Shown here piece after piece: positions 31,545-62,920 of a stretch of DNA of 64,000 nt. Numbering within the stretch: position 1 is the first letter of the stretch; every line of letters starts with the position of its first letter. The translations under genes were made by a program, and so were the position numbers. The notes beneath the pieces were generated by a model that saw only the letters and a program-made list of their open reading frames with translations, did not search any database and was not told where the DNA came from. The stretch spans positions 32,001-96,000 of the forward strand of contig JABCTZ010000001.1 in NCBI GenBank assembly GCA_018238155.1, given 5' to 3'. Source of the DNA: Candidatus Heimdallarchaeota archaeon. Lineage in GTDB: Archaea; Asgardarchaeota; Heimdallarchaeia; JABLTI01.

Positions 31545-33068
31545 TTGAATTCAAAGAAACTCTCAGCAGTATTCATAATACTTGCAATGGTATTTGTAAC
31601 GTCAGTTCAATTTATCTCACCAACTGAGACAAAAGCATCAGTTATTGAAGATTCTATTATTTTAACCCCTCGAAGCTCTGATGTGGTAATAACCAAAAAG
31701 ATTGTTGCATCTAATGGAAGCTTGCTTGAATTCTATAATACTTATTCAGAGGAGACTTTCTCCGTCATTGTTGAAGTTACAAACACAGCAAGTGAAGTTC
31801 TTCATAATGCTAGCATGACTTCACCTGAAATTAACGTCACAGATATGAGAGAAATCATCAGTCAATCTGTCTATGAAGAAGAATGGTTTAAAATTTTAGG
31901 TAATGGTTCACAATTCTTTGGTGATATTAATCCCGGTCAATCCAAGAGTGTTTCTTATACAATTGGATTCGAAGAGGAATATTACGATACGGTTATTCAA
32001 AAAGAATTCTTTACTTTTAGTGCTACAAATATGACTTTCAACTGGGGCAATAGCACAGAAGATGTTAGTTACTCAAATGAAATCGATTTTAGAGTATTCG
32101 AAGTTGCTCCAACAGTTAGGGTTGAAAAATTCTTTGTTGTTAATGGTGCGAATACCTTAGACGGTAGACAAGCTTTTATCTTACAAGAAGAAGTAGTCAA
32201 TGTAACAGTAAGAATAGTAATCAAAAATTTCATTCCATACGATATTAACCTTACATGTAATGATACCGACCCCAGTCCCAATTTTACTTTTGATGATTCA
32301 TCAATTTTGGAATTTAATACTTCTTTATTACTTCCCAATCAAGAATTCTCATATTCCTATGAAATAACCCCAGTAGAGAATGGTACATTTACACTTGATC
32401 CTTGTGAAATATCAGTCACATATTTGAATAATGGAACTGTCAAAGAATTCACTTCCAATAGCCCAAAAATAGAGTTATATATGCCAATATATGACGGAGA
32501 TGATTGGACTCTGAAAATGCCTTTGATAAGTGTTGAAAAATACTTTGTGATTTTTGAAGAGAATTTAGATGGTGATCTTGTAGAAAAATACTACAAAAAG
32601 TTGGAAGTATTCAACACTACAGAAGAACCTATTAAAATAATGATTAACGTAACAAATACAGGTTCAGTTGTTGCTTATAATATCACAATAGAGGAGACAC
32701 AATTTAATGATTGGGTATTCGAAACTGATTTCTTAGAAATATGGACAATCAAAGAGTTAGCCCAAGGTCAAAATCTGACCCGGTTTTATACTGTTACTCC
32801 TATCATTCTAGGAAGCTTCAAATTTGAACCCACAAAAGTTACTTTCTCCTATAAAAATCAATTAACTCTTGTCCATGTAATGGATCAAACAATTTATTCA
32901 TGTATCATTGAACTTACAATTTCGTTTGATGTCCCTGAGGTTGATTTATCCACACAATGGTGGATTGCTATTGGTATTAGCATTGGAGTAGTAGTCTTTA
33001 CTGTTATTCCATTGGTAATTGCTTTTGTTACTTTCAAGGGACGAAGAAAAACACAGAAAGGAATGTAA
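31545..33068 (+). CDS. Type I membrane glycoprotein with three BatD/DUF11/TRAP-beta-like Ig domains
   Basis: Signal peptide, 3x (V.K...V.V.V.N.G...N....L..G....Y.V.P...G.F), C-terminal TM + basic tail. Confidence 0.7.
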   Translation: MNSKKLSAVFIILAMVFVTSVQFISPTETKASVIEDSIILTPRSSDVVITKKIVASNGSLLEFYNTYSEETFSVIVEVTNTASEVLHNASMTSPEINVTDMREIISQSVYEEEWFKILGNGSQFFGDINPGQSKSVSYTIGFEEEYYDTVIQKEFFTFSATNMTFNWGNSTEDVSYSNEIDFRVFEVAPTVRVEKFFVVNGANTLDGRQAFILQEEVVNVTVRIVIKNFIPYDINLTCNDTDPSPNFTFDDSSILEFNTSLLLPNQEFSYSYEITPVENGTFTLDPCEISVTYLNNGTVKEFTSNSPKIELYMPIYDGDDWTLKMPLISVEKYFVIFEENLDGDLVEKYYKKLEVFNTTEEPIKIMINVTNTGSVVAYNITIEETQFNDWVFETDFLEIWTIKELAQGQNLTRFYTVTPIILGSFKFEPTKVTFSYKNQLTLVHVMDQTIYSCIIELTISFDVPEVDLSTQWWIAIGISIGVVVFTVIPLVIAFVTFKGRRKTQKGM

Positions 33069-33530: not shown

Positions 33531-34571
33531 TTATTTAAATAAAACTTTACTAAGTAGTTTTAGTTGTTCAATACCACGGATTTCTTGTGGAACCATGGGA
33601 ATTTCAGTTTGAATAAATTCACCGAAATATTGTTTCATTGTTAACATTGTTTTTTCTTGAATTTCGAATCTCTTTGCACAGAATTGGCAATCTTTACTTG
33701 GTGGTATTAATTGATTTACAATGATGTGTTCTACAGGTATACCATATTCCTTTAATGAAGTGATTAATCTTTCAGTCTCATATAATGCCATCATAGTAGG
33801 TATTGTTACAGGAATGAATTCTGTTTTCGTTTCATCTGCAAGCTGTATTCTTGCTTTTGTAATTGTTTTCTTGAGCGTTTCCATTACTTCAAGAGAATTA
33901 TCCTCAACGTCTTCTCCACCTCCTCCACCTGAAAAGAGGTTTCGCATTCCTTTGAAAAGATTACCAAAACGCATTCTCATTTTGAGCATTCTGCCAATAA
34001 AGCTATCAAGATAATCTGGAAGAGAGAGGAATCTAAGAGTATGACCCGTTGGTGCGGTGTCAAAAACAACTAAATCATATTCATTTGATTCTATTAATTC
34101 AAGTAATTTGCTAAAAGCAAATGCTTCATCTGAACCGGGAGGGATAGAATCTTCACCTAACAAATCAGCACCTAGTCCCTCTAAACCTGGTGGCATTTGT
34201 GGTGCTCCTGTTGTTCCTTCTGTAGTATTTGATGTTGTCCCAAAACCCGGCATACCCATTCCTTGGGCACCTGGCATTCCCATTGAGCTCAACTGTTTAA
34301 AACTCTCCATGCCCTTCTCTGCATCTAGTTCCAATCCAAAGAGATTTCCATCAACATTTTCAATTTTGACAGATTCGCCCCCTGATAAATCCTGATCAAA
34401 ACAGTCAGAGAGTGAATGTGCTGGATCTGTACTTACAACAAGTACTTTATCAAAATGTTTTGCTAATTCTATACTAATAGCTGAAGCAGCTATTGTTTTA
34501 CCCACACCACCCTTTCCTCCAAGGAAGAGATACGTTAAATCCTTTTTTTCTAGCAATGATTGTAAAGTCAT
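33531..34571 (-). CDS. Get3/TRC40-like ArsA-family ATPase
   Basis: GKGGVGKT, STDPAHSL, PGSDE, DTAPTGHTLRFL, C-terminal CQFC, Met-rich insert; single domain. Confidence 0.88.
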   Translation of the reverse strand: MTLQSLLEKKDLTYLFLGGKGGVGKTIAASAISIELAKHFDKVLVVSTDPAHSLSDCFDQDLSGGESVKIENVDGNLFGLELDAEKGMESFKQLSSMGMPGAQGMGMPGFGTTSNTTEGTTGAPQMPPGLEGLGADLLGEDSIPPGSDEAFAFSKLLELIESNEYDLVVFDTAPTGHTLRFLSLPDYLDSFIGRMLKMRMRFGNLFKGMRNLFSGGGGGEDVEDNSLEVMETLKKTITKARIQLADETKTEFIPVTIPTMMALYETERLITSLKEYGIPVEHIIVNQLIPPSKDCQFCAKRFEIQEKTMLTMKQYFGEFIQTEIPMVPQEIRGIEQLKLLSKVLFK

Positions 34572-34870
34572 TTGAACCAACACATATTGTATTAATTATG
34601 TTTGATGTTTTTTTAAGCTCCTTTTAAAACTTCTAATAGCTTTTTTTTTAATAATCAACAATTTTCTAACAGCCATTTAATTTCAAATAACAACTTCTGA
34701 AATGAAATTTTGACTGACTTATATTTTTTTTTACATTTGATTTTAATGATTTTCAAAATGAAATTATTAGTTTTTAATATTACACTTTTGTTTCATATGA
34801 AAAATACTATGATACTCAATAGATTTGAATATAATAGAAGGTAAAGTATTTTTAAGGCATACTCAAAATA

Positions 34871-34990
34871 AATTCGACAAAAATTCAATTTCGAATAACT
34901 TTTATAAGTATAATAAATACTAGAAAGTTAGTAATCAGTTTTTCTGATTATTAGAAATTTATAGGAAAAATGAGGGAAAATGAGGAAAAA
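34871..34990 (+). promoter_or_regulatory. Conserved promoter + hairpin leader of secreted-protein/ABC cassette 1
   Basis: GAATAAC-TTTTATAAG BRE/TATA-like; TAGTAATCAG-TTTTT-CTGATTATTA inverted repeat; matches 58131-58250 without gaps. Confidence 0.8.
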
Positions 34991-35522
34991 TAAGAAAATA
35001 TTATTGTTAAGTACTTTAATTTTGACTATGTTAGCAGTAACATTAGTTGCTCAAACAAATAGTGCATATTCACCTGTTCGCCCATTACGCAAAGTGCGAG
35101 TTTTCATAACACAAGTAAATTGTATAGGTCTACCTCAAGGGGGATGGTTCTCTCTTACTTTGTATCCTACATATCTTCGGCCATTTGGAGGTTATGGTGA
35201 TGAATTTACATCAAATTCCAACTGTGGGGATATGTCAGGAGGTAGTTTTCTCTACCCTCCCGGAATTAGTTCTGGAACCCATGTCTATTACAATAACTTG
35301 TATTGTGATTGGTCTCTTTGTATGGACTTTACTCAAAATGCAATATATTGCAGTGGTGAAATTAAAATAAAATATAAATTAAGACAGCACAAATTATGGG
35401 GTCGTACTGAATATATTACAATATTATACAATACTTATTCTTATGATACAGAATATATAACCACTCTGCACTACGGAATGGGTGTTGTAAAAGTATATAT
35501 CACATTTCAGCTTCTAAGCTGA
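34980..35522 (+). CDS. Secreted beta-rich protein of unknown function (cassette 1)
   Basis: Sec-type signal peptide (MRKNKK-hydrophobic-NSA); homologous to 58240-58788. Confidence 0.8.
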   Translation: MRKNKKILLLSTLILTMLAVTLVAQTNSAYSPVRPLRKVRVFITQVNCIGLPQGGWFSLTLYPTYLRPFGGYGDEFTSNSNCGDMSGGSFLYPPGISSGTHVYYNNLYCDWSLCMDFTQNAIYCSGEIKIKYKLRQHKLWGRTEYITILYNTYSYDTEYITTLHYGMGVVKVYITFQLLS

Positions 35523-35536
35523 AAAGCTTTTTTTTT
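35505..35536 (+). terminator. Hairpin + T9 overlapping the stop codon of the secreted gene
   Basis: TTTCAGCTT-CT-AAGCTGAAA followed by AGC and TTTTTTTTT. Confidence 0.6.
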
Positions 35537-35548
35537 AAAAAATGTTGA

Positions 35549-38311
35549 GTGCAAATGAAAGTGAGAGATATGAAAACCATGTTATACCATCTATTTGCAA
35601 AACGAAAAGTACTATTGAAGACTATTATAATCATTGGATTACTATCTCTGATTATTCTGACTTTTCTGTTTCCTGCACAGATTGCCACACCACACATTAT
35701 CAGAAAGCATTTCAATTGGGGGGGTAATCCAATTATAATTGGTGAGGATCTACAAAATAGTGGTCTTAATAATCCGGATTTTATGTATCATTTTAAAGTC
35801 AACAATATCGCTTTTATAACTGAAATTAATCAAATTTGCAAAGAAGCATCGCTTAAGATATATGACTTATATCAACCTTCTTCCATTGGTTGTTTTAGTA
35901 TTGAGCATGTAATTATTACAAATCAAACACTTGAAGATTGGACTGTTTTTGGGATTAATACAGAATTATATACCGAGTTGGTGAGCACATTAAATTCAAG
36001 TTTTGATAATGTACCTATTTTAGTAACTAATCATAGTATAACAACTGGTTTGTATGAGTTCAATTCTAGTAAAATTGGTAATTTTAGTATAACAATTAAT
36101 CATAATATTCAAACTTTGGATCTACAAGAAAAATTACCATCATTTAATAGTTACATCAATGAATTGAATAAATATAGTGATAATCCAATAAACAAATCAC
36201 GAATGATTTTTATTCCACATGAAAGTTTTCAAACAATATTTAAAATTGATATTTTTCTCATCAAGGGTTACATTGAATTCACAACTTATCAAGAGGATAT
36301 TCTATATTGGTCTTTAGATGCACCCAGAAAGCTAAGGTTATTCAAAGAAAGCTTATGTCAAGAGTTTCACGCAAAAGAACAATCAATAAATTATTTATTA
36401 CTTTATCAATCTATAATCTATAAAGAGGGATTAGTAGAGAGTAATGTTCTCATTGTAAATATTATTTATTCATTTATTCATGCAATTCAATTAATTATCT
36501 GGGGATTATCTGGAGCATTGATTTTCTTGATTTTAATAAAAATGCAACAAAATAATAAAGACAAAGAATTTCAGATGCTATTAGCAGGAAAGAATTTTCT
36601 TACGAGAATATCTACAATTGTTTTAGAAAACATTCTTATTGTCACTGGTGTTTCGGTTATTGCTTATGGTTTACTATTGCCTTTTATTAAACTGCAAGCA
36701 CTTATCTTTAATTTTCCATTTGATTTCTATAATGAAAATATTAAATTTGCTCTCATTTTCTTTCCAATAGCATTATTCTTTAGTTTGTTGATTATTTATC
36801 TTGACTTTGAATTGCATTTACGAAAGTCACTTAAAAATGGACAAATCGATAGTGAAACCTATCAACCTTTTGCTAAGATTCCAAAGTATATTCGTTACCA
36901 GATTTTTTTGGTCTTTGTTTTCTTATTATGGTTATTAAATCGCTCATTGCAACCATTTCTATACCAAATAGGATTTTTATTCCTTTTAGGAATAATTAGT
37001 GTTCTTTTATTTTTAGTAATTAAGGGTTGCATGTGGGTTATCATAAGAGTAGTAAAGAAAATTAAACGCAAATATGACAAACCATTATCTAACTTTGTAC
37101 TTCTTCTTGAGATGTGGAAAAAACCAATTAATACAAGATTTGTTCTTAGTAGCTTTATTGGAACAATGATCATTGGTCTCTGCATATTTAGCATTGCTAA
37201 TGCTGAGGTACAGAAAACAACAATGTTTTTCAATAATGATTTTTGTGCTATAAAAACAACAGTTAGTCTTCCAAATAATGATACAACATCTATCGAAGTT
37301 TTTCTACAGAATAATTCATTATTAAATGAACACTATACAAAATTAGTTTTTGCTCAGCACAATCCATGGGATAATATTTCATTTGTACACAACAATCAAT
37401 CAATTGTTGAGTTACCCAAGAACTTTTGCTTATTATATGGTATTAATATTACTGATTATCAGGCATTCTATTCCTCTTGGCGAACAGATAATTGGTTGCA
37501 AAATAGCATACAACCAGAAAAATTGAACTGTTCAAATGCCTTTGTTAGTAAGAGTTTCGCACAGCTAGGTTATGAACTAGGTGATTCAATAACTTTAGTC
37601 AATAATCAAAATGTATCCATTGCTGGTTTCCTTGATCAGTGGATAGGTATTGTTAGTACTGGTAATTATGTTTTAGTTCTTGAAAGTCAAATAATGGAAA
37701 AATTACTATTAGATTCTAATACTTCATCTATAGAATATCAGTTTAGATTCAATAGTGAAGAAAAAAATATTGAACATTCGGTTGAATATCTTCTTAATCA
37801 TTTAAGTGACATTGATGTGCCTTTTGCTATTTCATATGTACCTCCTGATATGATAGAGGGAATAGAATTAGTATTTATCATGCCCATAATGATGACTCTT
37901 GAGTCTTTAGTTATCTTTTTTATAGCAGTTAGTATTTTTAACAATTTGACTGATATTCACTCCAGTGATGAAGCACGAACACTTGGTATTCTTTTTATGA
38001 ACACAGATTTTAAAAAAACCTTGTTTCGCGTGAAACTTTTCGAAATGTTACTTTCGATAACACTTATTGCAGTTATTGTGAGTAGTATACTTGTTGTTTT
38101 TTCAATAATACTTGATAGTAATTTTACTTCTAACAATGTACCGAATTTTATTGAGATAATAAAAGCAGGATTAGGATTTTCAAAAAATATTGTTTTTTAC
38201 TCGATAATTATTTTGCTATTTTATCTTTTAATAGTTGTCGTACAAAATGTTTTTGATTATTTGAAGTTTAATAAATTGAAAATCCATTTATTATTCCGTC
38301 ATATTGAATGA
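35549..38311 (+). CDS. Large FtsX/MacB-like ABC permease (cassette 1)
   Basis: TM, large extracellular domain, TM cluster, arranged twice; LGYELGDSI..IAGF motif; adjacent to LolD-like ATPases. Confidence 0.7.
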   Translation: MQMKVRDMKTMLYHLFAKRKVLLKTIIIIGLLSLIILTFLFPAQIATPHIIRKHFNWGGNPIIIGEDLQNSGLNNPDFMYHFKVNNIAFITEINQICKEASLKIYDLYQPSSIGCFSIEHVIITNQTLEDWTVFGINTELYTELVSTLNSSFDNVPILVTNHSITTGLYEFNSSKIGNFSITINHNIQTLDLQEKLPSFNSYINELNKYSDNPINKSRMIFIPHESFQTIFKIDIFLIKGYIEFTTYQEDILYWSLDAPRKLRLFKESLCQEFHAKEQSINYLLLYQSIIYKEGLVESNVLIVNIIYSFIHAIQLIIWGLSGALIFLILIKMQQNNKDKEFQMLLAGKNFLTRISTIVLENILIVTGVSVIAYGLLLPFIKLQALIFNFPFDFYNENIKFALIFFPIALFFSLLIIYLDFELHLRKSLKNGQIDSETYQPFAKIPKYIRYQIFLVFVFLLWLLNRSLQPFLYQIGFLFLLGIISVLLFLVIKGCMWVIIRVVKKIKRKYDKPLSNFVLLLEMWKKPINTRFVLSSFIGTMIIGLCIFSIANAEVQKTTMFFNNDFCAIKTTVSLPNNDTTSIEVFLQNNSLLNEHYTKLVFAQHNPWDNISFVHNNQSIVELPKNFCLLYGINITDYQAFYSSWRTDNWLQNSIQPEKLNCSNAFVSKSFAQLGYELGDSITLVNNQNVSIAGFLDQWIGIVSTGNYVLVLESQIMEKLLLDSNTSSIEYQFRFNSEEKNIEHSVEYLLNHLSDIDVPFAISYVPPDMIEGIELVFIMPIMMTLESLVIFFIAVSIFNNLTDIHSSDEARTLGILFMNTDFKKTLFRVKLFEMLLSITLIAVIVSSILVVFSIILDSNFTSNNVPNFIEIIKAGLGFSKNIVFYSIIILLFYLLIVVVQNVFDYLKFNKLKIHLLFRHIE

Positions 38312-38332
38312 ATTATGGAGAGAAAGTGAAAA

Positions 38333-39028
38333 ATGGTTTCAGAAACAAAATTACAAGCAAATGAACTTACAAAAATATTTGCTCATCCATCCAAGAAAAA
38401 AACAAATATACCTCTCTTTGCCGGAACGTCATTTGTGATGACAGCTGACAAAATTAATTTTGTTATCGGTCCATCTGGTTCAGGAAAAACCACTCTCATC
38501 AAAATTCTAATGAGTATTGAACCTATAAATGCTGGAGAGATTTTCTTGAATGAACAGACCATTCATTCTCTAACAATGAAAGAACGAAATAGCTATTTAC
38601 AAAAGATAGGATATATGAATCAATTTCCTGCTAAATATCTCTCTTTAGATTCTACCGTTTGGTTTAATCTCGCTCAAGCTTTTTTCCTTCATTCCAAATT
38701 ATCCAGAGAGGAATTAAAAAAACTCATTCAATCAACTGCTTCATTGTTCAGTATTGAACACTTGCTTGAACAAAGAACCAATTTCCTTTCAGGTGGAGAG
38801 CTTCGTCGACTCAGCATTGCTTGCAGTACTATTTTTCAACCTAAGATACTTTTTTGTGATGAACCAACAGCACAATTGGATGAAGAGAATAAGAAAGCTG
38901 TTATGCAAACAATCCTAGATTTGCAGAAAAAGACTAACTGTTTGATTCTTATCTCAACACATGATCAATCCATTATAGATGTTGGCAATGTTTTCGAAAT
39001 AAAAGATAGGAGGATAATAAAATGGTAA
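38333..39028 (+). CDS. ABC ATPase A (LolD/MacB-like)
   Basis: GPSGSGKT, LSGGE, CDEPTAQLD, STHD. Confidence 0.92.
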   Translation: MVSETKLQANELTKIFAHPSKKKTNIPLFAGTSFVMTADKINFVIGPSGSGKTTLIKILMSIEPINAGEIFLNEQTIHSLTMKERNSYLQKIGYMNQFPAKYLSLDSTVWFNLAQAFFLHSKLSREELKKLIQSTASLFSIEHLLEQRTNFLSGGELRRLSIACSTIFQPKILFCDEPTAQLDEENKKAVMQTILDLQKKTNCLILISTHDQSIIDVGNVFEIKDRRIIKW

Positions 39029-39708
39029 TTGAACTAAAAGAAATTCACTATAGCTTTACAAGAAAAATGAAGAATCAAGTAATTATCAAAGAAATTCTCC
39101 AAGGATTGAATCTTTCTGTCACTAAGGCTGAGTTCATTTTAATCACAGGTCCATCGGGTTCAGGGAAAACAACATTGTTACAAATCATTGCTACAATGCT
39201 ACATCAAAAAACTGGCGAACGAATACTTTTTGGAAAAAATCACTCTGATGAACAATCCACACAAGATTTGATTCCAACAAGAAGAAAAATTGGTTATCTT
39301 TTTCAACAACCCTACCTTCCTCCTAAAATGAAAATCAAGGATTTCATTGCTTTACAAGCTATGCTCTCTGGAATTGGCATTAAATCTGCTGAAGAAAGAG
39401 CAAAATCACTTTTAACAGAATTCGATATGATGAATTTTGCTAACAATTATCCTCAGAAATTAAGTGGAGGAGAAAAACAACGCATTGCTCTTGCAGGTGT
39501 TTTAGCTAAAGATATTCAACTTCTCTTATTAGATGAACCTACTGGTTCTCTTGATTCTACAAACAAATCAATTATCTGGGAAGCAATAACTGATTTAAAA
39601 GAAAAAGGTCTTACTATTATTGCTGTCACTCATGACGTCTCAATAACTTCTCTTTCAGATAAAACTTATGAATTGAATTATGGTATTTTAACTAGAAAAG
39701 GAAAATAA
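39022..39708 (+). CDS. ABC ATPase B (LolD/MacB-like)
   Basis: GPSGSGKT, GYLFQ, LSGGEKQR, LDEPTGSLD, VTHD. Confidence 0.92.
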   Translation: MVIELKEIHYSFTRKMKNQVIIKEILQGLNLSVTKAEFILITGPSGSGKTTLLQIIATMLHQKTGERILFGKNHSDEQSTQDLIPTRRKIGYLFQQPYLPPKMKIKDFIALQAMLSGIGIKSAEERAKSLLTEFDMMNFANNYPQKLSGGEKQRIALAGVLAKDIQLLLLDEPTGSLDSTNKSIIWEAITDLKEKGLTIIAVTHDVSITSLSDKTYELNYGILTRKGK

Positions 39709-39816: not shown

Positions 39817-40773
39817 ATGACTGAAATTGACTCAATATCTGAGCCAAATAGGGTTCTTGTTAACGGCGACGATAAAGGTACTAAGAACGCCAAAGTATTT
39901 ACTTGGACAAAAGATCGCATTGTGCTTGCAATAATCTTTGTTATTATCATGCTTATCTCTGTAGGTTTGTTAGTTGTTATCATAGTTCAAGAAACATTCC
40001 TATTCACAGTTGTTCGTGATTGGTTTATTGCGCCCATTTTAAAAATACATATTGTATGGCGTATTGTTATGTTCTTAGCTGTTATGGTTCTCCAAAGTCT
40101 TTTTGCACCAATTCCATCTGAATTAATTCTTTTATCAGGTGGTATGCTGTTTGGGTACTATTGGGGTTCATTGATTGGTGTTGTTGGTTCCATGTTTAGT
40201 GCAGCAATCACTTTTTATCTTTCAAAACGTGGTGGGAGATCATTAGTTGATGCTGCTGGAAAGAAATCCGGTATAATCGATCGTACAATATATATTTTTG
40301 ATATTTGGATCAAAAGATGGGGAATTTGGGCCATTATCATTGGTAGAGCTGTGCCTGTAATTATGTTTGATCCTATAAGTTATGCAGCTGGTATAGCGAA
40401 TGTAGAAGATAAACAATATTTCTTAGCAACATTTATTGGATCAATTCCTCGCGCAATTTTCTATTCTATTCTTGGAGTTCAACTTCTGGGTGATAGAGAT
40501 ATTAACGAAATTTTAACATTAACTCAAACTGAAATAGAAACTGCTGCAAGTCAATTCAATGCTATATTCTTCATTATTTTCAGCGTTCTTGTTTTGATGT
40601 TTGTTTTGTCAAATGTTATTTACTATGTAAATCAACAAAAGAAGAAGAAAGAGAATCTAGAAGATGATGATCTCGTAGTTGGTTCCGACGAAAATGTTTC
40701 TTCAAAAGCAATTGAAATTGTTGAAGAAGAGCTTTCTGCACCAGATAGTTTATCTGAGGTTGGAGAGGAATAG
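39817..40773 (+). CDS. DedA/TVP38/TMEM64 (VTT domain) membrane protein
   Basis: APIPSE, GGMLFG, R.VP..FD.ISYAAG, FLATFIG.IPR. Confidence 0.88.
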   Translation: MTEIDSISEPNRVLVNGDDKGTKNAKVFTWTKDRIVLAIIFVIIMLISVGLLVVIIVQETFLFTVVRDWFIAPILKIHIVWRIVMFLAVMVLQSLFAPIPSELILLSGGMLFGYYWGSLIGVVGSMFSAAITFYLSKRGGRSLVDAAGKKSGIIDRTIYIFDIWIKRWGIWAIIIGRAVPVIMFDPISYAAGIANVEDKQYFLATFIGSIPRAIFYSILGVQLLGDRDINEILTLTQTEIETAASQFNAIFFIIFSVLVLMFVLSNVIYYVNQQKKKKENLEDDDLVVGSDENVSSKAIEIVEEELSAPDSLSEVGEE

Positions 40774-57128: not shown

Positions 57129-57149
57129 TTTTATCTGCACCTGTTAATA

Positions 57150-57641
57150 TTACCAAATATATATTGTAAAAGTATTTGATCCTGCTGCTCGGATAAAATC
57201 AATATGCTGTTGGAAGCTTTCACTATGTAACAATGGCAATCCAGTTCCTGCTTTATTTACTAATGAAACATCTTGCCAAGGAATAGTAGTTTCAAAGGGA
57301 ATTTCACTTATGGATGCATCTGAACTATCAATAGCTACCATAAACCAATGGTTCGCTCCTGGGAGGACTTTGAAAGTGATTTCATAGTGATGACCTGAAA
57401 TGTCTATAGGAAGACTAAGAGTTCTGTTGATTGCTACTCTAGTCTGAGGATCGGTACTCATACCTAACTCTAGAACATTTTTTAGCTCTTCAGCTACAGT
57501 TGTCAATACATCATTAAGTCCTACTTCAACGGTACTTTCAATTGTGTTCATATTAATCGTGTTGAAAGTTACAGTAACACCCGCAATAGCAATAACTCCG
57601 ATTGCAATAACACTGATGTACATAACCCATTCTGAAGCCAT
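57150..57641 (-). CDS. Pilin-like protein
   Basis: N-terminal ASE + hydrophobic helix, LP..I.G..Y.I motif; first gene of the pilus ATPase/TadC operon. Confidence 0.6.
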   Translation of the reverse strand: MASEWVMYISVIAIGVIAIAGVTVTFNTINMNTIESTVEVGLNDVLTTVAEELKNVLELGMSTDPQTRVAINRTLSLPIDISGHHYEITFKVLPGANHWFMVAIDSSDASISEIPFETTIPWQDVSLVNKAGTGLPLLHSESFQQHIDFIRAAGSNTFTIYIW

Positions 57642-58130: not shown

Positions 58131-58250
58131 AAACCGACAAAAAACCAATACTGAATAACATTTATTAATATAATTTGCGTTGGAGAACTAGTAATCAGTT
58201 TTTCTGATTATTAGAAATTTATTGGAAAAATGAGGAAAAATGAGGAAAAA
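58131..58250 (+). promoter_or_regulatory. Conserved promoter + hairpin leader of cassette 2
   Basis: 58189-58250 matches 34929-34990 at 60/62; 58131-58174 matches 34871-34914 at 34/44 with the same offset. Confidence 0.8.
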
Positions 58251-58788
58251 ACAATTACTTGTAATATTGTTAATATCAATCTTTTGTTGTTCCATTTTTT
58301 TAAGGATGAATTCAACAAATTCCACAACAATAGAGCTTGATAAAATACAAATTGTAATCAATAAGATAGCTGTAACAGATGAATTGGCGAAAGTATGGTT
58401 TTTTAGTACTTGGTACTTTATGGAAATTGAACCAATGTACAAAAGACACTTTGGAACTTGGGGCGATCGACTTCAAAATAGTGATTTTCAATATGAGGAT
58501 TGGATTGGTAGTTCAAATAGATATCCTGCTGGAATTGAAGCTAATAAAATCAAGGTTTATTCTAATATTCTAAATATTGAGTATTCTTATTGTTTACCTT
58601 TTGAAGACGATGACAAATCTGAACTATCTCTCAGCTTCACACTCCACAGAAGAAATCCACATGGCAAGCATGTCTTTACTAAAGAATTTAATAATTTGGA
58701 CTACGGAGTTATGTATTCGAGTGGAGATTTGAATTATAGAAATTATGGCGGGCATGTGACTGTATATTTCACAGTCAATTTATTGTAA
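58240..58788 (+). CDS. Secreted beta-rich protein of unknown function (cassette 2)
   Basis: Signal peptide; shares P.Y.R.FG..GD, YP.GI, VY.N, V.VY.T..LL with 34980-35522. Confidence 0.8.
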   Translation: MRKKQLLVILLISIFCCSIFLRMNSTNSTTIELDKIQIVINKIAVTDELAKVWFFSTWYFMEIEPMYKRHFGTWGDRLQNSDFQYEDWIGSSNRYPAGIEANKIKVYSNILNIEYSYCLPFEDDDKSELSLSFTLHRRNPHGKHVFTKEFNNLDYGVMYSSGDLNYRNYGGHVTVYFTVNLL

Positions 58789-58812
58789 TGGGAACACCAT
58801 TACATTTTTTTT
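58784..58812 (+). terminator. Hairpin + T8 overlapping the stop codon of the secreted gene
   Basis: TGTAATGG-GAACA-CCATTACA-TTTTTTTT. Confidence 0.65.
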
Positions 58813-58851
58813 AAGAATTAAATAGAATGAATAAGAGGAGATGGTTGTACT

Positions 58852-61536
58852 ATGATGAAAATATTTTATAACTTACTTTCGAAGAAAAATTCTCTAATTA
58901 AGCAGATTATGATATATAGTTTGATAATAATTGTTTCTGTAAGTGTTTTATATCTACCTCAAGTAGCTAACCCTCATAATCTTAGAAATTATTTCAGGAA
59001 TTTTAGCAATGGTGGATTATATTTCAAAGAAGGCACCATTGATTGGGATCGATATGGATATGACTTTGAAACAACAGCTGGGCAGTCTAGCTCTTTAGGC
59101 TTCTTTGATAATTTTTCTGATATTTTAGAAACAACATCCAAAGAAGTTTATGGTTTATTTGAACCTTCAGAGTATTATTGTATTTCAAAACTAAATATTT
59201 ACATCAATAATTTGACTATCGATAATCAATTTTCTTTGATTCCAATAAGCTCTAGATTCTATAATGAAATAGGAAAATTATTGAATACTACTTTCATCGG
59301 TGGGTCATTAATTATTACGAATACCTCAAGTTTCTCATCAGGTTCATACAATATAACTTATAATAATCAAAATACCTCTATTTCAATAAATTATCTTATT
59401 GAAAGCAATCTAATAGAAACATATTATCCTTCTCTGAAACATCAAATCTTTGGAAATCAACAAAATGATAATTTAACAAATATTATTTTAATGCCTGTGG
59501 TTGAATTCTCTCCAATATTTGATAATCTAGAAAAGTCTTTTAGTAATAAATATCATTTTGAAGTTTATATCAAGTTTTCTGATTTTCAAAAGGATGTTAT
59601 ATTTTGGTCTATTAATTCTCAATCATTATTACTAGATTTTGAAGAGACTTTAATTGCTAACCTCCAATCAGTTGAATCAACTTTAACAATTCAATTTTTT
59701 AGGAATCAAGATTTTTCGATAGCGAATAATTCCATCTTAATCAAGACTATTTTTTCATTTATTCGTGGTATCCAAATTACCATTTGGATAATATCAATAG
59801 CTATTGTAGGATTAACAATTTCACAAGTTAAAAAGAGTGGGCTAAAAAAAGAAATGCGTATTTTAATGGCTGGAGAAAAATGGTCTACTCGATTAATCAG
59901 CCATTTTTCTGAAATATCTATTATTGAATTCTGTAGTTGCTTGATAGCATTACCAATTTCATTTCTATTTATGAAAGCTCAGATTTTAATTGGATTAGAT
60001 TTTAGTTTTACAAAAGCAATGGCTTTGGGGTATGGACTGATTCCTATCTGTTTTCTATGCCTGTTATTTGGTTTTTATTTTGATTTTGAATTTTATCTTC
60101 GACGTATTTTAGAAACTGGTTTTTCATCTGAAAAATATCGTCCATTCACAAAAATACCAAATATCGTCAAAGTAATGCTTATTCCAGTTGCATTCCTTTT
60201 AGTTTGGTTATTGAACAAATCACTTACTTCACTTTTGTTTCAATTAGGTTATATTATTGTTGTAATTATAATTGCATCTTTGGTTGGTTTTTTGATAAAA
60301 TCTTTGCTTAAAGTAATATATCGGTTTAGTATTAAAAGAAAAAGGAAAGTGGATCAACCTCGTTCAGTTTTCAATATTATTTGTCAATTATTTAACAAAT
60401 CACTTGTAAATAGGGTTCGAGTCTTTTCTTTTCTATTAACAATTGTTTCTTTAATGTTCTTTTATACAGCTATTACTGCTGATGGTTTTAAAAATGGTTA
60501 TTTATTAATGCACGGCAGTGAGATAAGTGTTACTGTAAATGCCGATTCAAATTCAACGTTGATTAAAGATACACTCATTAATAATTCCAATATTCTTGAT
60601 TATACAATTATATCTATGATTAATCACAACCAAGTGTATAATATTACGGTATTGAAAGAATCTTTTGATAATGATTCATGTTCAATTTATGGTTTGAATA
60701 TAGATGATTATTTCAACTTTTATAAGACTTGGAATAAGCGAAATTGGCTTCAAAGTGGAACACTTGATGCTTTAGATAACCAATCAATATTTGTAAGCTT
60801 AAAATTCAAAGAGTATAATTATGACATCGGTGATAATTTAGTATTAAAAGATAATTTATCTTTAACCATAGCTGGTTTTTTGAATGAGTGGTCTGGTATT
60901 TCTGATATATATTGCACAAAAAGTCAATTAATAGTAGCTCTGACTCAACCTGATATGTTACATATTCAAGGTTTTGCTGGTAATGGTTCTGTTTCTTATA
61001 CCTATAAGATTCATGTCAAACCAAAGAATATTATTCCAACAGTTAATTACTTAAATGAGAAACTGTCTGCATTAGATTCATTTGAGGAAATAACTGCTAT
61101 CGATTTCATGATTTTTATAGGAGTCCGAATCGTTTTCTTATATCCTATTTGTTTACTTTTTGAGCTTTTCATATTAATCATGATTGCTCTAACTATATAT
61201 TCAAATATCGTACCAATGCAATCAAATGAAAATTTCAAGTTATTTGGTTTAATTTCAATGAATGCTGATTACAGGAAACCCTTTAGGAATTATAAGATCT
61301 TTGAAAATATTCTATTTAGCTTTTTGTTCGTTTTGATTCTTTCATTATTTTTATTACTGGGTAGTATTTCTTGGGTTCTATTATCCCCGGGTGATTTTTC
61401 TTTCTCCTCTCAAACAATACTATATACGGGAATATTTTTCGCTCTTTATATTGCTCTCTTATTCATACAGAGTTCAATAGAATACATTAGTTTCAAGAAA
61501 CTAAAATTAAATTTACTATATCGTCATTCAGAATGA
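58852..61536 (+). CDS. Large FtsX/MacB-like ABC permease (cassette 2)
   Basis: Paralogue of 35549-38311 (PQVANPH, DFE..LR, PF.KIP, NWLQ, IAGFL..W.GI, LL.RH.E end). Confidence 0.7.
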   Translation: MMKIFYNLLSKKNSLIKQIMIYSLIIIVSVSVLYLPQVANPHNLRNYFRNFSNGGLYFKEGTIDWDRYGYDFETTAGQSSSLGFFDNFSDILETTSKEVYGLFEPSEYYCISKLNIYINNLTIDNQFSLIPISSRFYNEIGKLLNTTFIGGSLIITNTSSFSSGSYNITYNNQNTSISINYLIESNLIETYYPSLKHQIFGNQQNDNLTNIILMPVVEFSPIFDNLEKSFSNKYHFEVYIKFSDFQKDVIFWSINSQSLLLDFEETLIANLQSVESTLTIQFFRNQDFSIANNSILIKTIFSFIRGIQITIWIISIAIVGLTISQVKKSGLKKEMRILMAGEKWSTRLISHFSEISIIEFCSCLIALPISFLFMKAQILIGLDFSFTKAMALGYGLIPICFLCLLFGFYFDFEFYLRRILETGFSSEKYRPFTKIPNIVKVMLIPVAFLLVWLLNKSLTSLLFQLGYIIVVIIIASLVGFLIKSLLKVIYRFSIKRKRKVDQPRSVFNIICQLFNKSLVNRVRVFSFLLTIVSLMFFYTAITADGFKNGYLLMHGSEISVTVNADSNSTLIKDTLINNSNILDYTIISMINHNQVYNITVLKESFDNDSCSIYGLNIDDYFNFYKTWNKRNWLQSGTLDALDNQSIFVSLKFKEYNYDIGDNLVLKDNLSLTIAGFLNEWSGISDIYCTKSQLIVALTQPDMLHIQGFAGNGSVSYTYKIHVKPKNIIPTVNYLNEKLSALDSFEEITAIDFMIFIGVRIVFLYPICLLFELFILIMIALTIYSNIVPMQSNENFKLFGLISMNADYRKPFRNYKIFENILFSFLFVLILSLFLLLGSISWVLLSPGDFSFSSQTILYTGIFFALYIALLFIQSSIEYISFKKLKLNLLYRHSE

Positions 61537-61553
61537 ATATCGGAGGTAATAAT

Positions 61554-62255
61554 ATGGCTAATACTATAAATAAAATATCTGCGCACGAGATTACAAAAAT
61601 CTATCCTCATCCTAATAAAAAAGATGTTAATTTCCCTGTTTTTGCTGGTGCATCTTTCATTATTACTAGTGAGTCTATTAATTACCTATTGGGTTCTTCG
61701 GGATCGGGCAAAACAACATTGCTAAGAATGCTTCATGGGATTGAAAAAATTAACGCTGGAGAATTAATATTCAATGATGTTGTGATTAATAGTTTAAGTG
61801 GAAAAGAAAGAATTACTTATTTAAAAGATGTTGGTTATATGGATCAATTTCCCTCTGATTACTTGTCAACAAACCTTACTGTTGCACAAAATTTGGATTA
61901 TTCTTTGTTGCTTCATCAAAGCTTACCGAGAGAGATACGAAAAAAGAAAATCGATGATATCGCAACTAAATTTCATTTATCAAACCTTCTTCAACAGAAA
62001 ACTCTTTCAATTTCAGGAGGGGAAATGAGGCGTTTAGGTTTAGCTTGCAGTATTATTTTTCAACCAAAAATTCTTCTCTGTGATGAACCAACAGCTCAAT
62101 TAGATAATGAAAATAAGAAAGATATTATGAAGATTTTTCATGAAATTGTATCAGAATTTAATCCAATTATCCTTATTGTGACCCATGATAATTCAATTAC
62201 AGATCCAAAATTTACACTTAAGATAGTTGACAGGAGGATCCAACAATGGAGTTAA
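61554..62255 (+). CDS. ABC ATPase A (cassette 2)
   Basis: GSSGSGKT, ISGGEMRR, CDEPTAQLD, VTHD; GGAGGT RBS before ATG at 61554. Confidence 0.92.
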   Translation: MANTINKISAHEITKIYPHPNKKDVNFPVFAGASFIITSESINYLLGSSGSGKTTLLRMLHGIEKINAGELIFNDVVINSLSGKERITYLKDVGYMDQFPSDYLSTNLTVAQNLDYSLLLHQSLPREIRKKKIDDIATKFHLSNLLQQKTLSISGGEMRRLGLACSIIFQPKILLCDEPTAQLDNENKKDIMKIFHEIVSEFNPIILIVTHDNSITDPKFTLKIVDRRIQQWS

Positions 62256-62920
62256 TAAGATTAGAACATATTCAATTTTCATTTGGTAATAATTCAAAAG
62301 AACAAAAAAAAATTTTGGCTGATATCAATTTAACTATCACTAAAGGGGACTTTCATCTCATAACAGGTCCTTCTGGATCGGGTAAAACAACCTTATTACA
62401 GATACTTGCTACTTTGTTATTTCCAACAAGTGGTAAATACTATTACGTAAACCAAGAGATCAATCGAAATTCTTCCATAGAGGAATTATCATCTCTCAGA
62501 TTAAAAATTGGTTATTTATTTCAAACTCCTTTTTTACCAAATAACCTTAAAGTCAAAGATTATATTGAAATTCAAGCCGAATTATCAGGAATGGGTATAG
62601 CTTCTGCAGAAAAGAAGTCATTGAGTTTATTAGAAGATTTTGGCATCGTAAATTTAGCTTCATTAAAACCTGGAACTCTAAGTGGTGGAGAAAAACAAAG
62701 AGTTGCATTAGCTGGTCTTTTTATTAAAAACAGCAAACTTTTGTTATTTGATGAACCTACAGGATCACTTGATTATGAAAATAAAAAAATATTTTGGGAA
62801 TTACTAGTACAAGCAAAAAAACAAGATACGACTGTAATAACAGTCTCACATGATGAATCATTATCAGCTTTTTGTGACCATTGTTTCAATTTGGATTATG
62901 GAGTTTTAACCCCTCTATAA
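62246..62920 (+). CDS. ABC ATPase B (cassette 2)
   Basis: GPSGSGKT, GYLFQ, LSGGEKQR, FDEPTGSLD, VSHD. Confidence 0.92.
   Translation: MELIRLEHIQFSFGNNSKEQKKILADINLTITKGDFHLITGPSGSGKTTLLQILATLLFPTSGKYYYVNQEINRNSSIEELSSLRLKIGYLFQTPFLPNNLKVKDYIEIQAELSGMGIASAEKKSLSLLEDFGIVNLASLKPGTLSGGEKQRVALAGLFIKNSKLLLFDEPTGSLDYENKKIFWELLVQAKKQDTTVITVSHDESLSAFCDHCFNLDYGVLTPL

What the first reader, a model, noticed from the sequence alone, without database searches (positions are those of the whole stretch)
34871..39708. Repeated 'secreted protein + FtsX-type permease + two ATPases' cassette: candidate archaeal effector/self-protection or dedicated-export system (copy 2 at 58131-62920)
Seen: two copies 23,260 bp apart with the same order. 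Each has a conserved promoter/leader, a ~180-aa signal-peptide protein, a hairpin + T-tract, a ~900-aa double FtsX-like permease, and overlapping ATPases A and B. The secreted proteins and permeases are highly diverged between copies; the ATPases are more similar. Known: in the lactococcin 972 family a Sec-exported bacteriocin is followed by a multi-TM immunity-associated protein and an ABC ATPase, and MacB/LolCDE-type ABCs act on extracytoplasmic substrates. Inference: a polymorphic module in which each secreted protein has co-diverged with its own permease, either as antimicrobial/signal plus immunity, or as substrate plus release machine. I know of no description of this in Asgard archaea.
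Basis: partly seen in the sequence, partly recalled or inferred. Interest (0 to 1): 0.85.

Follow-up and report, generated by a model that had tools for sequence, protein, structure and literature searches.

The report
Asgard ABC machine with C2-like partner
The window holds two of this genome's three copies of a four-gene operon found only in a few Asgard archaea, which couples a MacB/FtsX-type ABC membrane motor to a small exported protein predicted to fold like a C2 membrane-binding domain; the operon is real and conserved, but whether the small protein is the motor's surface partner or cargo, or an antimicrobial with its immunity pump, is still open.

Summary
Both cassettes have the order small signal-peptide protein, about 900-aa permease, ATPase A, ATPase B. 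They share a near-identical leader of about 110 bp and a hairpin plus T-tract after the small gene. A third cassette and one orphan small gene lie elsewhere in the genome.

The permease has no Pfam, NCBIfam or PDB sequence match. It has the 10-TM double-FtsX topology and aligns end to end with this genome's 26 recognised double-FtsX permeases (hhalign 98.8%, E 5e-17; reversed control 15.6%). The small protein family is tiny: 26 representatives among 1.84 billion proteins, and 14 of 400 Asgard genomes. It models (pLDDT 83) as a C2-like beta-sandwich (Z up to 10.2; the 45 best entries, bar one, are titled as C2 domains or known C2-bearing proteins).

Of 23 cassettes inspected, 17 carry an intact small gene in the same order. 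Five lack it and in one it has decayed. Trees of all components agree, so cassettes are inherited as units. The outside domains do not diverge faster than the TM regions.

My best reading (0.45) is a type VII ABC mechanotransmission machine with a dedicated outside partner or cargo, closest to YbbAP-TesA. The lactococcin-972-like "antimicrobial plus immunity" reading stays open (0.25), but family membership was tested and not met. This scan noted the same stretch before; other notes on this genome describe similar FtsX modules.

The parts
34871..34979 (+). Copy 1 promoter and leader: TATA-like box about 34901-34914 and a 5' leader hairpin at 34928-34954 (11-bp stem, T5 loop), followed by GAGG before the ATG.
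   Evidence: The region is nearly identical to 58131-58239. RNA fold gives -10.9 kcal/mol, z -2.4. The 34-nt core is unique to the two cassettes in the genome.
34980..35522 (+). Copy 1 small exported protein (180 aa): N-terminal signal peptide or anchor (about residues 3-25) plus a C2-like beta-sandwich (about 36-180).
   Evidence: Translation and one N-terminal hydrophobic segment. The AF2 model has pLDDT 83.3. Matches to C2 domains reach Z 10.2. There is no Pfam or NCBIfam family match.
35505..35536 (+). Copy 1 hairpin (8-bp stem) overlapping the small-gene stop codon, followed by T9: a likely partial terminator or attenuator.
35549..38311 (+). Copy 1 permease, 920 aa from the GTG (918 aa from the in-frame ATG at 35555). 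It has 10 predicted TM segments in the pattern 1 + outside domain (about 45-295) + 3, then 2, then 1 + outside domain (about 556-770) + 3. It is a divergent double-FtsX (type VII ABC) permease.
   Evidence: Topology. hhalign against own-genome PF02687 permeases gives Prob 98.8, E 5e-17 over 827 columns, against 15.6 for the reversed control. Atlas features score 0.98 to FtsX clusters. No direct Pfam, NCBIfam or PDB sequence hit.
38333..39028 (+). Copy 1 ABC ATPase A (231 aa), with signature LSGGELRR and Walker B ending DEPTAQLD.
   Evidence: PF00005 E 6e-23. The best NCBIfam matches are L_ocin_972_ABC, LolD and FtsE, all below cut-off. Motifs.
39022..39708 (+). Copy 1 ABC ATPase B (228 aa), with signature LSGGEKQR and Walker B ending DEPTGSLD. 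It overlaps ATPase A by 7 nt.
   Evidence: PF00005 E 1.5e-30, NCBIfam matches, motifs.
58131..58239 (+). Copy 2 promoter and leader, with the hairpin at 58188-58214.
   Evidence: -13.1 kcal/mol, z -2.9.
58240..58788 (+). Copy 2 small exported protein (182 aa), 28% identical to copy 1.
58784..58812 (+). Copy 2 hairpin (8-bp stem, 5-nt loop) overlapping the stop codon, followed by T8.
   Evidence: read directly from the sequence.
58852..61536 (+). Copy 2 permease (894 aa), 28% identical to copy 1 over its full length.
61533..62255 (+). Copy 2 ABC ATPase A (240 aa).
62246..62920 (+). Copy 2 ABC ATPase B (224 aa).

Best explanation
**What it is.** Each cassette is a self-contained operon for a type VII (MacB/FtsX-superfamily) ABC "mechanotransmission" machine. 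One polypeptide carries two FtsX modules (10 TM helices) and two large outside domains. It is driven by a heterodimer of two different ATPases, A and B, both with complete catalytic motifs.

**The small protein.** The first gene encodes a Sec-exported, mostly acidic protein of about 150 aa (mature), predicted to be a C2-like beta-sandwich. Its conserved acidic and aromatic residues sit in the long loops at one end.

**How it likely works (inferred).**
- This protein is the machine's dedicated partner or cargo on the outer face of the membrane.
- It is made in excess, because a hairpin plus T-tract after its gene lets only part of the transcripts reach the transporter genes.
- ATP-driven movements of the outside domains act on it from outside. 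They either pass it a lipid or other hydrophobic molecule pulled from the membrane, or detach it from the membrane, as in YbbAP-TesA and LolCDE-LolA.

**Shown versus inferred.** Shown here: gene content, order, conservation, the FtsX relationship, the ATPase motifs and the predicted fold. Inferred: export, physical contact with the permease, the nature of the substrate and the attenuator function.
For: - **Conserved order.** The order small, permease, A, B is conserved in 17 of 23 cassettes, from Heimdall-group MAGs to the cultured Loki-group Promethearchaeum syntrophicum MK-D1, CP042905. The component trees are congruent.
- **Permease.** It has the 10-TM double-FtsX topology with two outside domains. 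hhalign to 26 own-genome PF02687 permeases gives Prob 98.8, E 5e-17 against a reversed control of 15.6. Atlas features score 0.98 to FtsX clusters.
- **ATPases.** They are closest to LolD, FtsE, DevA, DarD and L_ocin_972-type NBDs. Walker A, signature, Walker B Glu and H-loop are kept in both A and B in nearly all cassettes.
- **Small protein.** It has one N-terminal hydrophobic segment. The AF2 model has pLDDT 83 and matches C2 domains at Z up to 10.2 (rmsd 2.4 A over 104 residues); of the 45 best entries all but one (a ciliary-tip structure) are titled as C2 domains or are known C2-bearing proteins (one search agrees). Conserved residues cluster in the beta2-beta3, beta4-beta5 and beta6-beta7 loops.
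- **Extra surface gene.** Loki-type and one Heimdall cassette add a 255-277-aa type-I membrane ectoprotein between the small gene and the permease. This fits a multi-part surface assembly.
- **Genome context.** The genome holds 27 further FtsX permeases (26 of them double, 790 aa or more), many with two or fused ATPases and neighbouring N-terminally anchored proteins.
- **Precedent.** In E. coli the single-chain 10-TM YbbP plus its ATPase works with a small Sec-exported partner encoded next to it (PMC12646458).
Against: - No direct evidence of contact between the small protein and the permease.
- Five cassettes lack the small gene, in at least two separate clades. One has a decayed copy, and one small gene is an orphan. 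The pairing is therefore dispensable or can work in trans.
- Variable small-gene dosage (tandem pairs in L031 and L035, a fused tandem in P0030) and the attenuator fit a cargo or a product better than a 1:1 structural partner.
- The C2 assignment rests on a predicted model only. No member matches Pfam C2 at E up to 1.
- Signal-peptide cleavage was not tested.
Confidence: 0.45

Rival explanations
1. Antimicrobial (or signalling) protein plus self-protection, using the logic of lactococcin-972-type loci. The exported beta-sandwich binds a membrane-anchored target on neighbouring cells. The FtsX-type ABC system protects the producer, and cassettes without the small gene would be immunity-only loci.
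For: - The gene order matches Lcn972-type operons: a Sec-exported beta-sandwich, then a membrane protein, then an ABC ATPase (PMC11796350, PMC4055356).
- Both ATPases have TIGR03608 (L_ocin_972_ABC) as their top NCBIfam match.
- Several old, strongly diverged loci sit in one genome, and the distribution is patchy: 14 of 400 Asgard genomes.
- Cassettes lacking or losing the small gene parallel the 27.5% of pneumococci that keep only scbBC (PMC11796350).
- The attenuator implies more small-protein message than transporter message.
Against: - The small protein does not match PF09683. NCBIfam gave three family members only one weak, below-cut-off match to another family.
- The permease does not match TIGR01654.
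- The TIGR03608 scores (121 and 161 bits) lie far below the cut-off of 254.85, and LolD and FtsE score nearly the same.
- The predicted fold is an 8-strand C2-like sandwich of about 145 aa, not the small Lcn972 sandwich.
- Most members are acidic, with pI 4.1-5.8.
- An orphan small gene has no adjacent protection genes.
- Cassette trees separate Loki-type from Heimdall-type copies, as vertical descent would. GC content is only about 1.5-2 SD below the genome mean.
- Archaea lack lipid II (established knowledge).
Confidence: 0.25
2. The ABC system is a general resistance or detoxification module of the BceAB/MacB/HrtBA type. It removes an external peptide, drug or lipid-bound compound, and the small protein is only an accessory, such as a binding or sensing helper, or a co-transcribed passenger.
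For: - The 10-TM single-chain FtsX permease is the BceB-like format.
- The transporter persists without the small gene in several genomes.
- The ATPases resemble MacB, DarD and DevA-type NBDs.
Against: - The small gene is the first gene of the operon in 17 of 23 cassettes and is co-inherited across Loki- and Heimdall-group genomes.
- No two-component system or regulator is conserved next to the cassettes.
- There are two large outside domains rather than BceB's single one.
- The family is confined to a few Asgard lineages.
Confidence: 0.12
3. The small protein keeps its N-terminal helix as a membrane anchor and is a fixed subunit of the transporter, taking the role of an adaptor such as MacA or EnvC. 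It would be neither cargo nor a released product.
For: - Only about 10 residues separate the hydrophobic helix from the first strand.
- The cleavage-site residues are not conserved across the family.
- By strand order, both termini and the conserved loops lie at the same end of the sandwich, which would face the membrane (inference).
Against: - Many members have small residues at positions -1 and -3 a few residues after the helix, as signal peptidase sites do (read by eye).
- The attenuator and the variable gene dosage argue against fixed stoichiometry.
- Some cassettes do without the small gene.
Confidence: 0.1

Closest known systems
[quoted passage not shown]
   Same: A single-chain permease with two FtsX modules (10 TM) and two outside domains. 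MacB/LolD-type ATPase. A small Sec-exported protein is encoded next to the transporter and works with it outside the membrane.
   Different: - The partner here is a predicted C2-like beta-sandwich with no hydrolase motifs, not the SGNH hydrolase TesA.
- There are two distinct ATPase genes (A and B) instead of one YbbA.
- The permease is not detectable by Pfam FtsX.
- The system is archaeal (no periplasm or outer membrane), and the small gene is the first gene of the same operon, followed by an attenuator.
LolCDE-LolA and FtsEX-EnvC/PcsB (type VII ABC systems acting on an extracytoplasmic protein)
   Same: ATP hydrolysis inside is used to act on a protein or lipid-anchored cargo outside. The partner or cargo is specific to the system.
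   Different: - LolC/LolE and FtsX are separate 4-TM proteins with identical ATPase copies.
- Their partners (the LolA fold; coiled-coil plus LytM or CHAP domains) are unrelated to a C2-like sandwich.
- No cell-wall hydrolase or lipoprotein carrier is encoded here.
Lactococcin 972-type bacteriocin loci (lcn972-orf2-orf3; scbABC; PMC4055356, PMC11796350)
   Same: The operon logic matches: Sec-exported beta-sandwich protein first, then a multi-TM protein, then an ABC ATPase. Both show several divergent loci per genome and loci that keep only the membrane and ATPase genes. TIGR03608 is the top-scoring NCBIfam model for both ATPases.
   Different: - No sequence match to PF09683 or TIGR01654, and the ATPases score below the TIGR03608 cut-off.
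- The small protein is more than twice as long and has a C2-like 8-strand fold.
- There are two ATPases and a permease of about 900 aa.
- The known target, lipid II, is absent from archaea.
BceAB-type peptide-antibiotic resistance transporters
   Same: A single-chain 10-TM FtsX-type permease with a MacB-type ATPase.
   Different: BceB has one large outside domain and works with a BceRS two-component system. Here there are two outside domains, two ATPases, no neighbouring sensor kinase or regulator, and a dedicated exported protein.
Eukaryotic C2 domains (cPLA2, perforin, extended synaptotagmin, PLC)
   Same: The predicted 8-stranded beta-sandwich superposes on them at Z 8-10 over 104-115 residues. 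Conserved acidic and aromatic residues lie in loops at one end.
   Different: There is no sequence similarity (4-15% identity; no PF00168 match). The protein is exported rather than cytosolic. Calcium or lipid binding is untested. Beta-sandwiches can converge, so common descent is not shown.

Membership tests
Type VII ABC (MacB/FtsX superfamily) permease | FtsX module: 4 TM helices with a large outside domain between TM1 and TM2 (two modules here) | tested here: met
   Hydropathy gives the pattern 1 + about 250 aa + 3, then 2, then 1 + about 215 aa + 3 in all three paralogues. This is a prediction only.
Type VII ABC (MacB/FtsX superfamily) permease | Sequence relationship to FtsX (PF02687) | tested here: met
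   Direct hmmscan finds nothing at E up to 0.1, and the PF02687 genome scan skips these three genes. The profile-profile alignment to 26 own-genome PF02687 permeases gives Prob 98.8, E 5e-17 over 827 columns, against 15.6 for the reversed control. Atlas features score 0.98 to clusters that are 85-97% PF02687.
Type VII ABC (MacB/FtsX superfamily) permease | MacB/LolD/FtsE-type nucleotide-binding domains | tested here: inconclusive
   The top NCBIfam matches are L_ocin_972_ABC, LolD, FtsE, DevA and DarD, all below their equivalog cut-offs. PF00005 is clearly met.
Type VII ABC (MacB/FtsX superfamily) permease | Mechanotransmission: no transmembrane passage, work done outside | not testable with these tools
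   Needs structures in different nucleotide states or biochemistry.
YbbAP-TesA-type complex | Single-chain double-FtsX permease with a small exported partner encoded alongside | tested here: met
   The architecture comparison is with PMC12646458.
YbbAP-TesA-type complex | The partner is an SGNH lipase/thioesterase, and one ATPase gene is used twice | tested here: not met
   The small protein has no Pfam hit and a C2-like fold. Two distinct ATPase orthologue groups, A and B, occur in every cassette whose ATPase genes were captured.
Lactococcin 972 bacteriocin system | Bacteriocin of family PF09683 | tested here: not met
   None of 25 family members matches at E up to 1. There is no match in the whole genome.
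Lactococcin 972 bacteriocin system | Membrane protein of family TIGR01654 (bact_immun_7tm) | tested here: not met
   No match for the three permeases at E up to 0.1, nor in the genome at E up to 1. The control found it in Lactococcus lactis.
Lactococcin 972 bacteriocin system | ATPase of family TIGR03608 above the cut-off | tested here: not met
   121.4 and 161.5 bits against a cut-off of 254.85. It is nonetheless the top-scoring model.
Lactococcin 972 bacteriocin system | Antimicrobial activity and immunity | not testable with these tools
   Needs killing and protection assays.
C2 domain | Sequence match to PF00168 | tested here: not met
   No member matches at E up to 1, and there is no match in the genome.
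C2 domain | 8-stranded C2 beta-sandwich fold | tested here: met
The model has pLDDT 83.3. VIA-align against 48,161 chains gives Z 10.2, 10.1 and 9.8 for the top three; of the 45 best entries all but one are titled as C2 domains or are known C2-bearing proteins. This is a predicted model, not a solved structure.
C2 domain | Calcium-dependent or direct phospholipid binding through the loops at one end | not testable with these tools
BceAB-type resistance module | One outside domain (TM7-TM8) and an adjacent BceRS-like two-component system | tested here: not met
   There are two outside domains. The flanking genes are ArsA-like, VTT/DedA, GNAT, T2SSE ATPase and CoA ligase, with no kinase or regulator.

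The most novel reading that the evidence does not exclude
The small protein is a true lipid-binding C2-type module used outside the cell. Together with its ABC motor it forms an Asgard-specific system that pulls lipids or lipid-anchored molecules out of the membrane and hands them to an exported C2-like carrier. That would be a prokaryotic, extracellular forerunner or parallel of eukaryotic C2-based membrane targeting, present in cultured Promethearchaeum syntrophicum MK-D1 and therefore testable.
Probability: 0.1. Interest if true: 0.85.

Novelty: new variant of a known kind. Interest (0 to 1): 0.55.

Why it matters
Type VII ABC machines are understood almost only from bacteria, and none has been characterised in archaea. 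This Heimdall-group genome carries about 30 of them.

The cassette described here is a clean, compact, conserved case. It has one permease chain, two distinct ATPases, and one dedicated exported protein from a family with only 26 representatives among 1.84 billion clustered proteins.

The same operon is present in the cultured Asgard archaeon Promethearchaeum syntrophicum MK-D1, so its expression, localisation and partners can be tested directly.

If the exported protein really is a C2-like membrane binder, that would bear on how Asgard cells handle and remodel their surface membranes. If it is an antimicrobial, it would be, to my knowledge, the first antagonism system described in Asgard archaea. 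Either outcome is new biology, but at present the function is inferred only.

Tried and rejected
- **Complex prediction.** I used permease residues 8-430 and 500-920 plus the mature small protein. The result was no verdict (score 0.18, mark 0.32). It counts neither for nor against binding.
- **Sequencing runs.** None was listed for the cassette, so there is no expression or transcript-end data. This is no evidence either way.
- **PDB sequence search with the permease profile.** It gave only a chance-level hit (E 3) to a phage tail spike.
- **Pfam and NCBIfam on the small proteins and permeases.** Nothing useful was found.
- **A 4249-aa bacterial repeat protein, P0032.** It matched the small-family profile in 9 short stretches. 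It is an RTX/adhesin-like repeat protein, and I regard the match as a repeat-summed artefact. I did not follow it further.
- **Other small proteins near FtsX permeases.** I asked whether N-terminally anchored proteins beside this genome's other FtsX permeases belong to the same family. The best hhalign probability was 26%, covering only the signal peptide and first strand, so no relationship is shown.
- **Faster divergence of the outside domains.** The idea that they diverge faster than the membrane parts is not supported.
- **Recent horizontal arrival.** Cassette GC is 28.8-29.9% against a genome value of 32.8 +/- 2.0%. The difference is driven by the permease genes, so it is weak evidence at best.
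- **The pBL1 (Lcn972) record.** It is not in the plasmid collection, so I could not compare Lcn972 ORF2 with this permease directly.
- I fetched G015 and G016 at each other's coordinates. The two partial small-family hits with an in-frame TGA were therefore not examined.
- **Language-model search with the small protein.** The best score was 0.80, which is not informative.
Full report
**Observation**

ORF listing and translation confirm two co-oriented four-gene cassettes 23,260 bp apart.
- Copy 1: small protein 34980-35522, permease 35549-38311 (in-frame ATG at 35555), ATPase A 38333-39028, ATPase B 39022-39708.
- Copy 2: 58240-58788, 58852-61536, 61533-62255 and 62246-62920.

The small proteins are 28% identical (E 7e-15), the permeases 28% (E 1e-98), ATPases A 53% and ATPases B 50%.

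About 110 bp upstream of each small gene are almost identical. They hold a TATA-like box and an 11-bp-stem hairpin at 34928-34954 and 58188-58214. A 34-nt core of this leader occurs nowhere else in the 4.08-Mb genome.

Each small gene ends in an 8-bp-stem hairpin that overlaps the stop codon and is followed by T9 or T8, at 35505-35536 and 58784-58812.

**More copies in the same genome**

A search of the whole assembly found a third cassette on contig C16 with the same four genes and order, but without the shared leader. An HMM of the small family also found a fourth small gene on contig C20. That gene has no permease or ATPase beside it; its neighbours are an Fe-alcohol dehydrogenase and a restriction-modification methylase.

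**The permease**

Pfam, NCBIfam and a PDB sequence search give nothing. A genome scan with PF02687 (FtsX) finds 49 matches in 28 other permease genes, 26 of them double-FtsX proteins of 790 aa or more, but none in these three.

Hydropathy nevertheless gives the double-FtsX pattern. It runs TM1, an outside domain of about 250 aa, three TMs, two linker TMs, one TM, an outside domain of about 215 aa, and three TMs.

A profile of six family members aligns end to end with a profile of the genome's 26 recognised double-FtsX permeases: Prob 98.8%, E 5e-17, 827 columns. With the template reversed, probability drops to 15.6% and the score from 151 to 39. Language-model features independently place it with FtsX clusters at 0.98, with all listed sets carrying PF02687.

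I therefore accept it as a very divergent double-FtsX (type VII ABC) permease.

**The ATPases**

Both are PF00005 proteins. Their nearest curated families are L_ocin_972_ABC, LolD, FtsE, DevA and DarD, all below cut-off. A and B form two separate orthologue groups that keep their order in every cassette whose ATPase genes were captured. Walker A, signature, Walker B with the catalytic Glu, and the H-loop are present in both in nearly all cassettes. The motor is thus a heterodimer with two apparently competent sites.

**The small protein**

The family is very small.
- 8 proteins among 5.8 billion by word-seeded search.
- 26 representatives at E up to 0.001 among 1.84 billion by exhaustive HMMER.
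- 14 of 400 Asgard genomes: own genus 6 of 10, plus a few other Heimdall-class and Loki-class genomes.

Members have a basic N-terminus, one hydrophobic helix, a linker of about 10 residues and then a beta-rich domain of about 145 aa. Most are acidic, with pI 4.1-5.8.

With 25 aligned sequences AlphaFold2 gives pLDDT 83.3 and pTM 0.71. An exhaustive structural comparison with 48,161 PDB representatives puts an entry titled "Structure of a C2 domain" (3w56) first at Z 10.2 (rmsd 2.4 A, 104 of 108 residues). It is followed by cPLA2 (10.1), perforin C2 (9.8) and extended synaptotagmin (9.5). Of the 45 best entries, all but one (a ciliary-tip structure) are titled as C2 domains or are known C2-bearing proteins. 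Foldseek on the earlier, weaker model also returned only C2-containing entries.

There is no sequence match to PF00168.

The most conserved residues lie in the long loops between strands 2-3, 4-5 and 6-7:
- R67 (100%)
- F69
- G73
- D79 (92%; always D, E or N)
- Y82 (96%)
- D84
- Y92-P93
- E127
- Y155-D156

By strand order these loops lie at the same end as both termini; that placement is my inference. The fold is C2-like. Common descent and calcium or lipid binding are not shown.

**Linkage and evolution**

I inspected 23 permease-family cassettes in public contigs and Asgard genomes.
- 17 have an intact small-family gene directly upstream, always followed by permease, A and B.
- One of them is in the complete genome CP042905.2, which is Promethearchaeum syntrophicum MK-D1 (PMC11316595).
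- Variants: two tandem small genes (L031, L035) and a fused tandem (P0030).
- In Loki-type cassettes and one Heimdall cassette, an extra 255-277-aa type-I membrane ectoprotein sits between the small gene and the permease.
- Five cassettes have no small gene and one has a decayed fragment. Two of the small-less cassettes fall in different clades.

The permease family occurs in 13 of 400 Asgard genomes, in the same lineages as the small family.

Trees of the small protein, permease and ATPases give the same groups. The three paralogues of this genome each have closer relatives elsewhere, so they are old.

Median pairwise identities are 23% for the small protein, 25% for the permease, 48% for A and 46% for B. 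Within the permease the outside domains (22-23%) are about as diverged as the TM parts (25-28%). Hence the cassettes are inherited as units. There is no specific mark of an arms race or of partner-driven diversification.

**Context**

The flanking genes differ between cassettes.
- Around copy 1: ArsA/Get3-like ATPase, a TRAP-beta-like protein and a VTT/DedA protein.
- Around copy 2: a type-IV-pilus-like ATPase, DUF7266 and a CoA ligase.

No regulator, kinase, peptidase or mobile-element gene is conserved next to them. GC content is 28.8-29.9% against 32.8 +/- 2.0% for the genome, largely because of the permease genes.

**Mechanism**

The best-supported reading is a type VII ABC mechanotransmission machine that works on the outer face of the membrane together with its own exported C2-like protein. 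The nearest solved analogue in architecture is E. coli YbbAP-TesA. That system combines a single-chain 10-TM double-FtsX permease, a MacB-type ATPase and a small Sec-exported partner encoded alongside. It is proposed to extract hydrophobic molecules from the membrane and present them to the partner (PMC12646458).

Here the partner is a C2-like sandwich rather than a hydrolase, and the motor is a heterodimer. The attenuator, the variable small-gene dosage and the small-less cassettes suggest the small protein is made in excess. They also suggest it may be cargo or product rather than a fixed subunit.

I give this partner/cargo model 0.45.

**Rivals**

The lactococcin-972-like reading has real parallels: the operon logic, several diverged loci per genome, loci that keep only the membrane and ATPase genes, and TIGR03608 as the top ATPase model. 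But membership was tested and not met for the bacteriocin, the membrane protein and the ATPase cut-off. In addition, the proteins are mostly acidic and of a different fold, and one small gene stands without protection genes. I give it 0.25.

A generic resistance pump with an accessory protein gets 0.12. A permanently anchored adaptor subunit gets 0.10.

**Earlier notes of this scan**

The same stretch and its leader were noted before (e1-5497597, e1-5497589). Other notes on this genome describe further FtsX-type modules with small exported or surface proteins, and one follow-up also named YbbAP-TesA as the closest known system.

I checked what I could.
- The genome-wide count and neighbourhoods of FtsX permeases agree.
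- The two "C2-like" small proteins on contig C21 show no significant sequence relationship to this family.

**Verdict**

The feature is real, conserved and restricted to Asgard archaea. It is a new variant of a known kind of system (a type VII ABC machine with a dedicated outside protein), with a new partner family of predicted C2-like fold. Its function is inferred, not shown.

Noticed in passing
window 34928-34954 and 58188-58214; L010:386-416; L007, L025, L027, L032, L033 and L036 upstream of their small genes: Most cassettes carry a perfect 8-13-bp hairpin roughly 0-35 nt upstream of the start codon, but with different sequences. Between copy 1 and its orthologue L010 two stem pairs have changed on both sides (T-A to C-G and C-G to T-A). 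This points to a selected 5' leader hairpin rather than a fixed protein-binding sequence. C16, L009 and L031 lack it.
   Followed up: partly
window 34871-34990 versus 58131-58250: The two cassettes belong to different old clades (28% protein identity), yet share a nearly identical promoter and leader up to codon 4. This suggests recent gene conversion of the control region, or strong shared regulation.
   Followed up: partly
G000:C20:103198-103884 (-), = L028:7199-7885: A fourth small-family gene (HMM E 1.6e-45) has no permease or ATPase beside it. Its neighbours are an Fe-alcohol dehydrogenase and an Eco57I-type methylase.
   Followed up: yes
L025:7700-8521, L031:7475-8242 (-), L032:5379-6212 (-): Loki-type and one Heimdall cassette hold an extra 255-277-aa gene between the small gene and the permease. 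It has an N-terminal signal, an outside domain rich in N-x-S/T sites and a C-terminal TM anchor, and no family match on record.
   Followed up: partly
whole genome G000: There are 28 further FtsX (PF02687) permease genes (26 of 790-1003 aa, one of 652 aa and one single-module gene of 410 aa). Many sit next to a fused double ATPase of about 553 aa or two separate ATPases. This is a large expansion of type VII ABC systems in one Heimdall-group genome.
   Followed up: partly
window 31545-33068 (+) and 33531-34583 (-): A 507-aa protein has a C-terminal match to translocon-associated protein beta (PF05753, E 1e-10). It lies next to an ArsA/Get3-type ATPase (PF02374, E 5e-83). Both are eukaryote-like membrane-protein biogenesis factors.
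   Followed up: no
window 39817-40773 (+): A VTT/DedA-domain membrane protein (PF09335, E 1e-22) starts 109 bp after ATPase B of copy 1. Members of this family are linked to lipid scrambling. It is not found after the other cassettes.
   Followed up: no
window 55578-57641 (-): A type II/IV secretion-type ATPase (PF00437, E 3e-36) and a DUF7266 protein lie just upstream of copy 2 on the other strand. This is probably part of a type-IV-pilus-like locus.
   Followed up: no
L041:207-401 (-) (G083:C152): Upstream of one permease only the C-terminal 65 aa of a small-family gene survive (E 3.7e-9). This is a cassette caught while losing its small gene.
   Followed up: yes
G015:C1:1565477-1565734 and G016:C1:1680428-1680694: Two complete Heimdall-class genomes have partial small-family matches (profile positions 4-88) with one in-frame TGA each. 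I did not examine them because I fetched the wrong coordinates.
   Followed up: no
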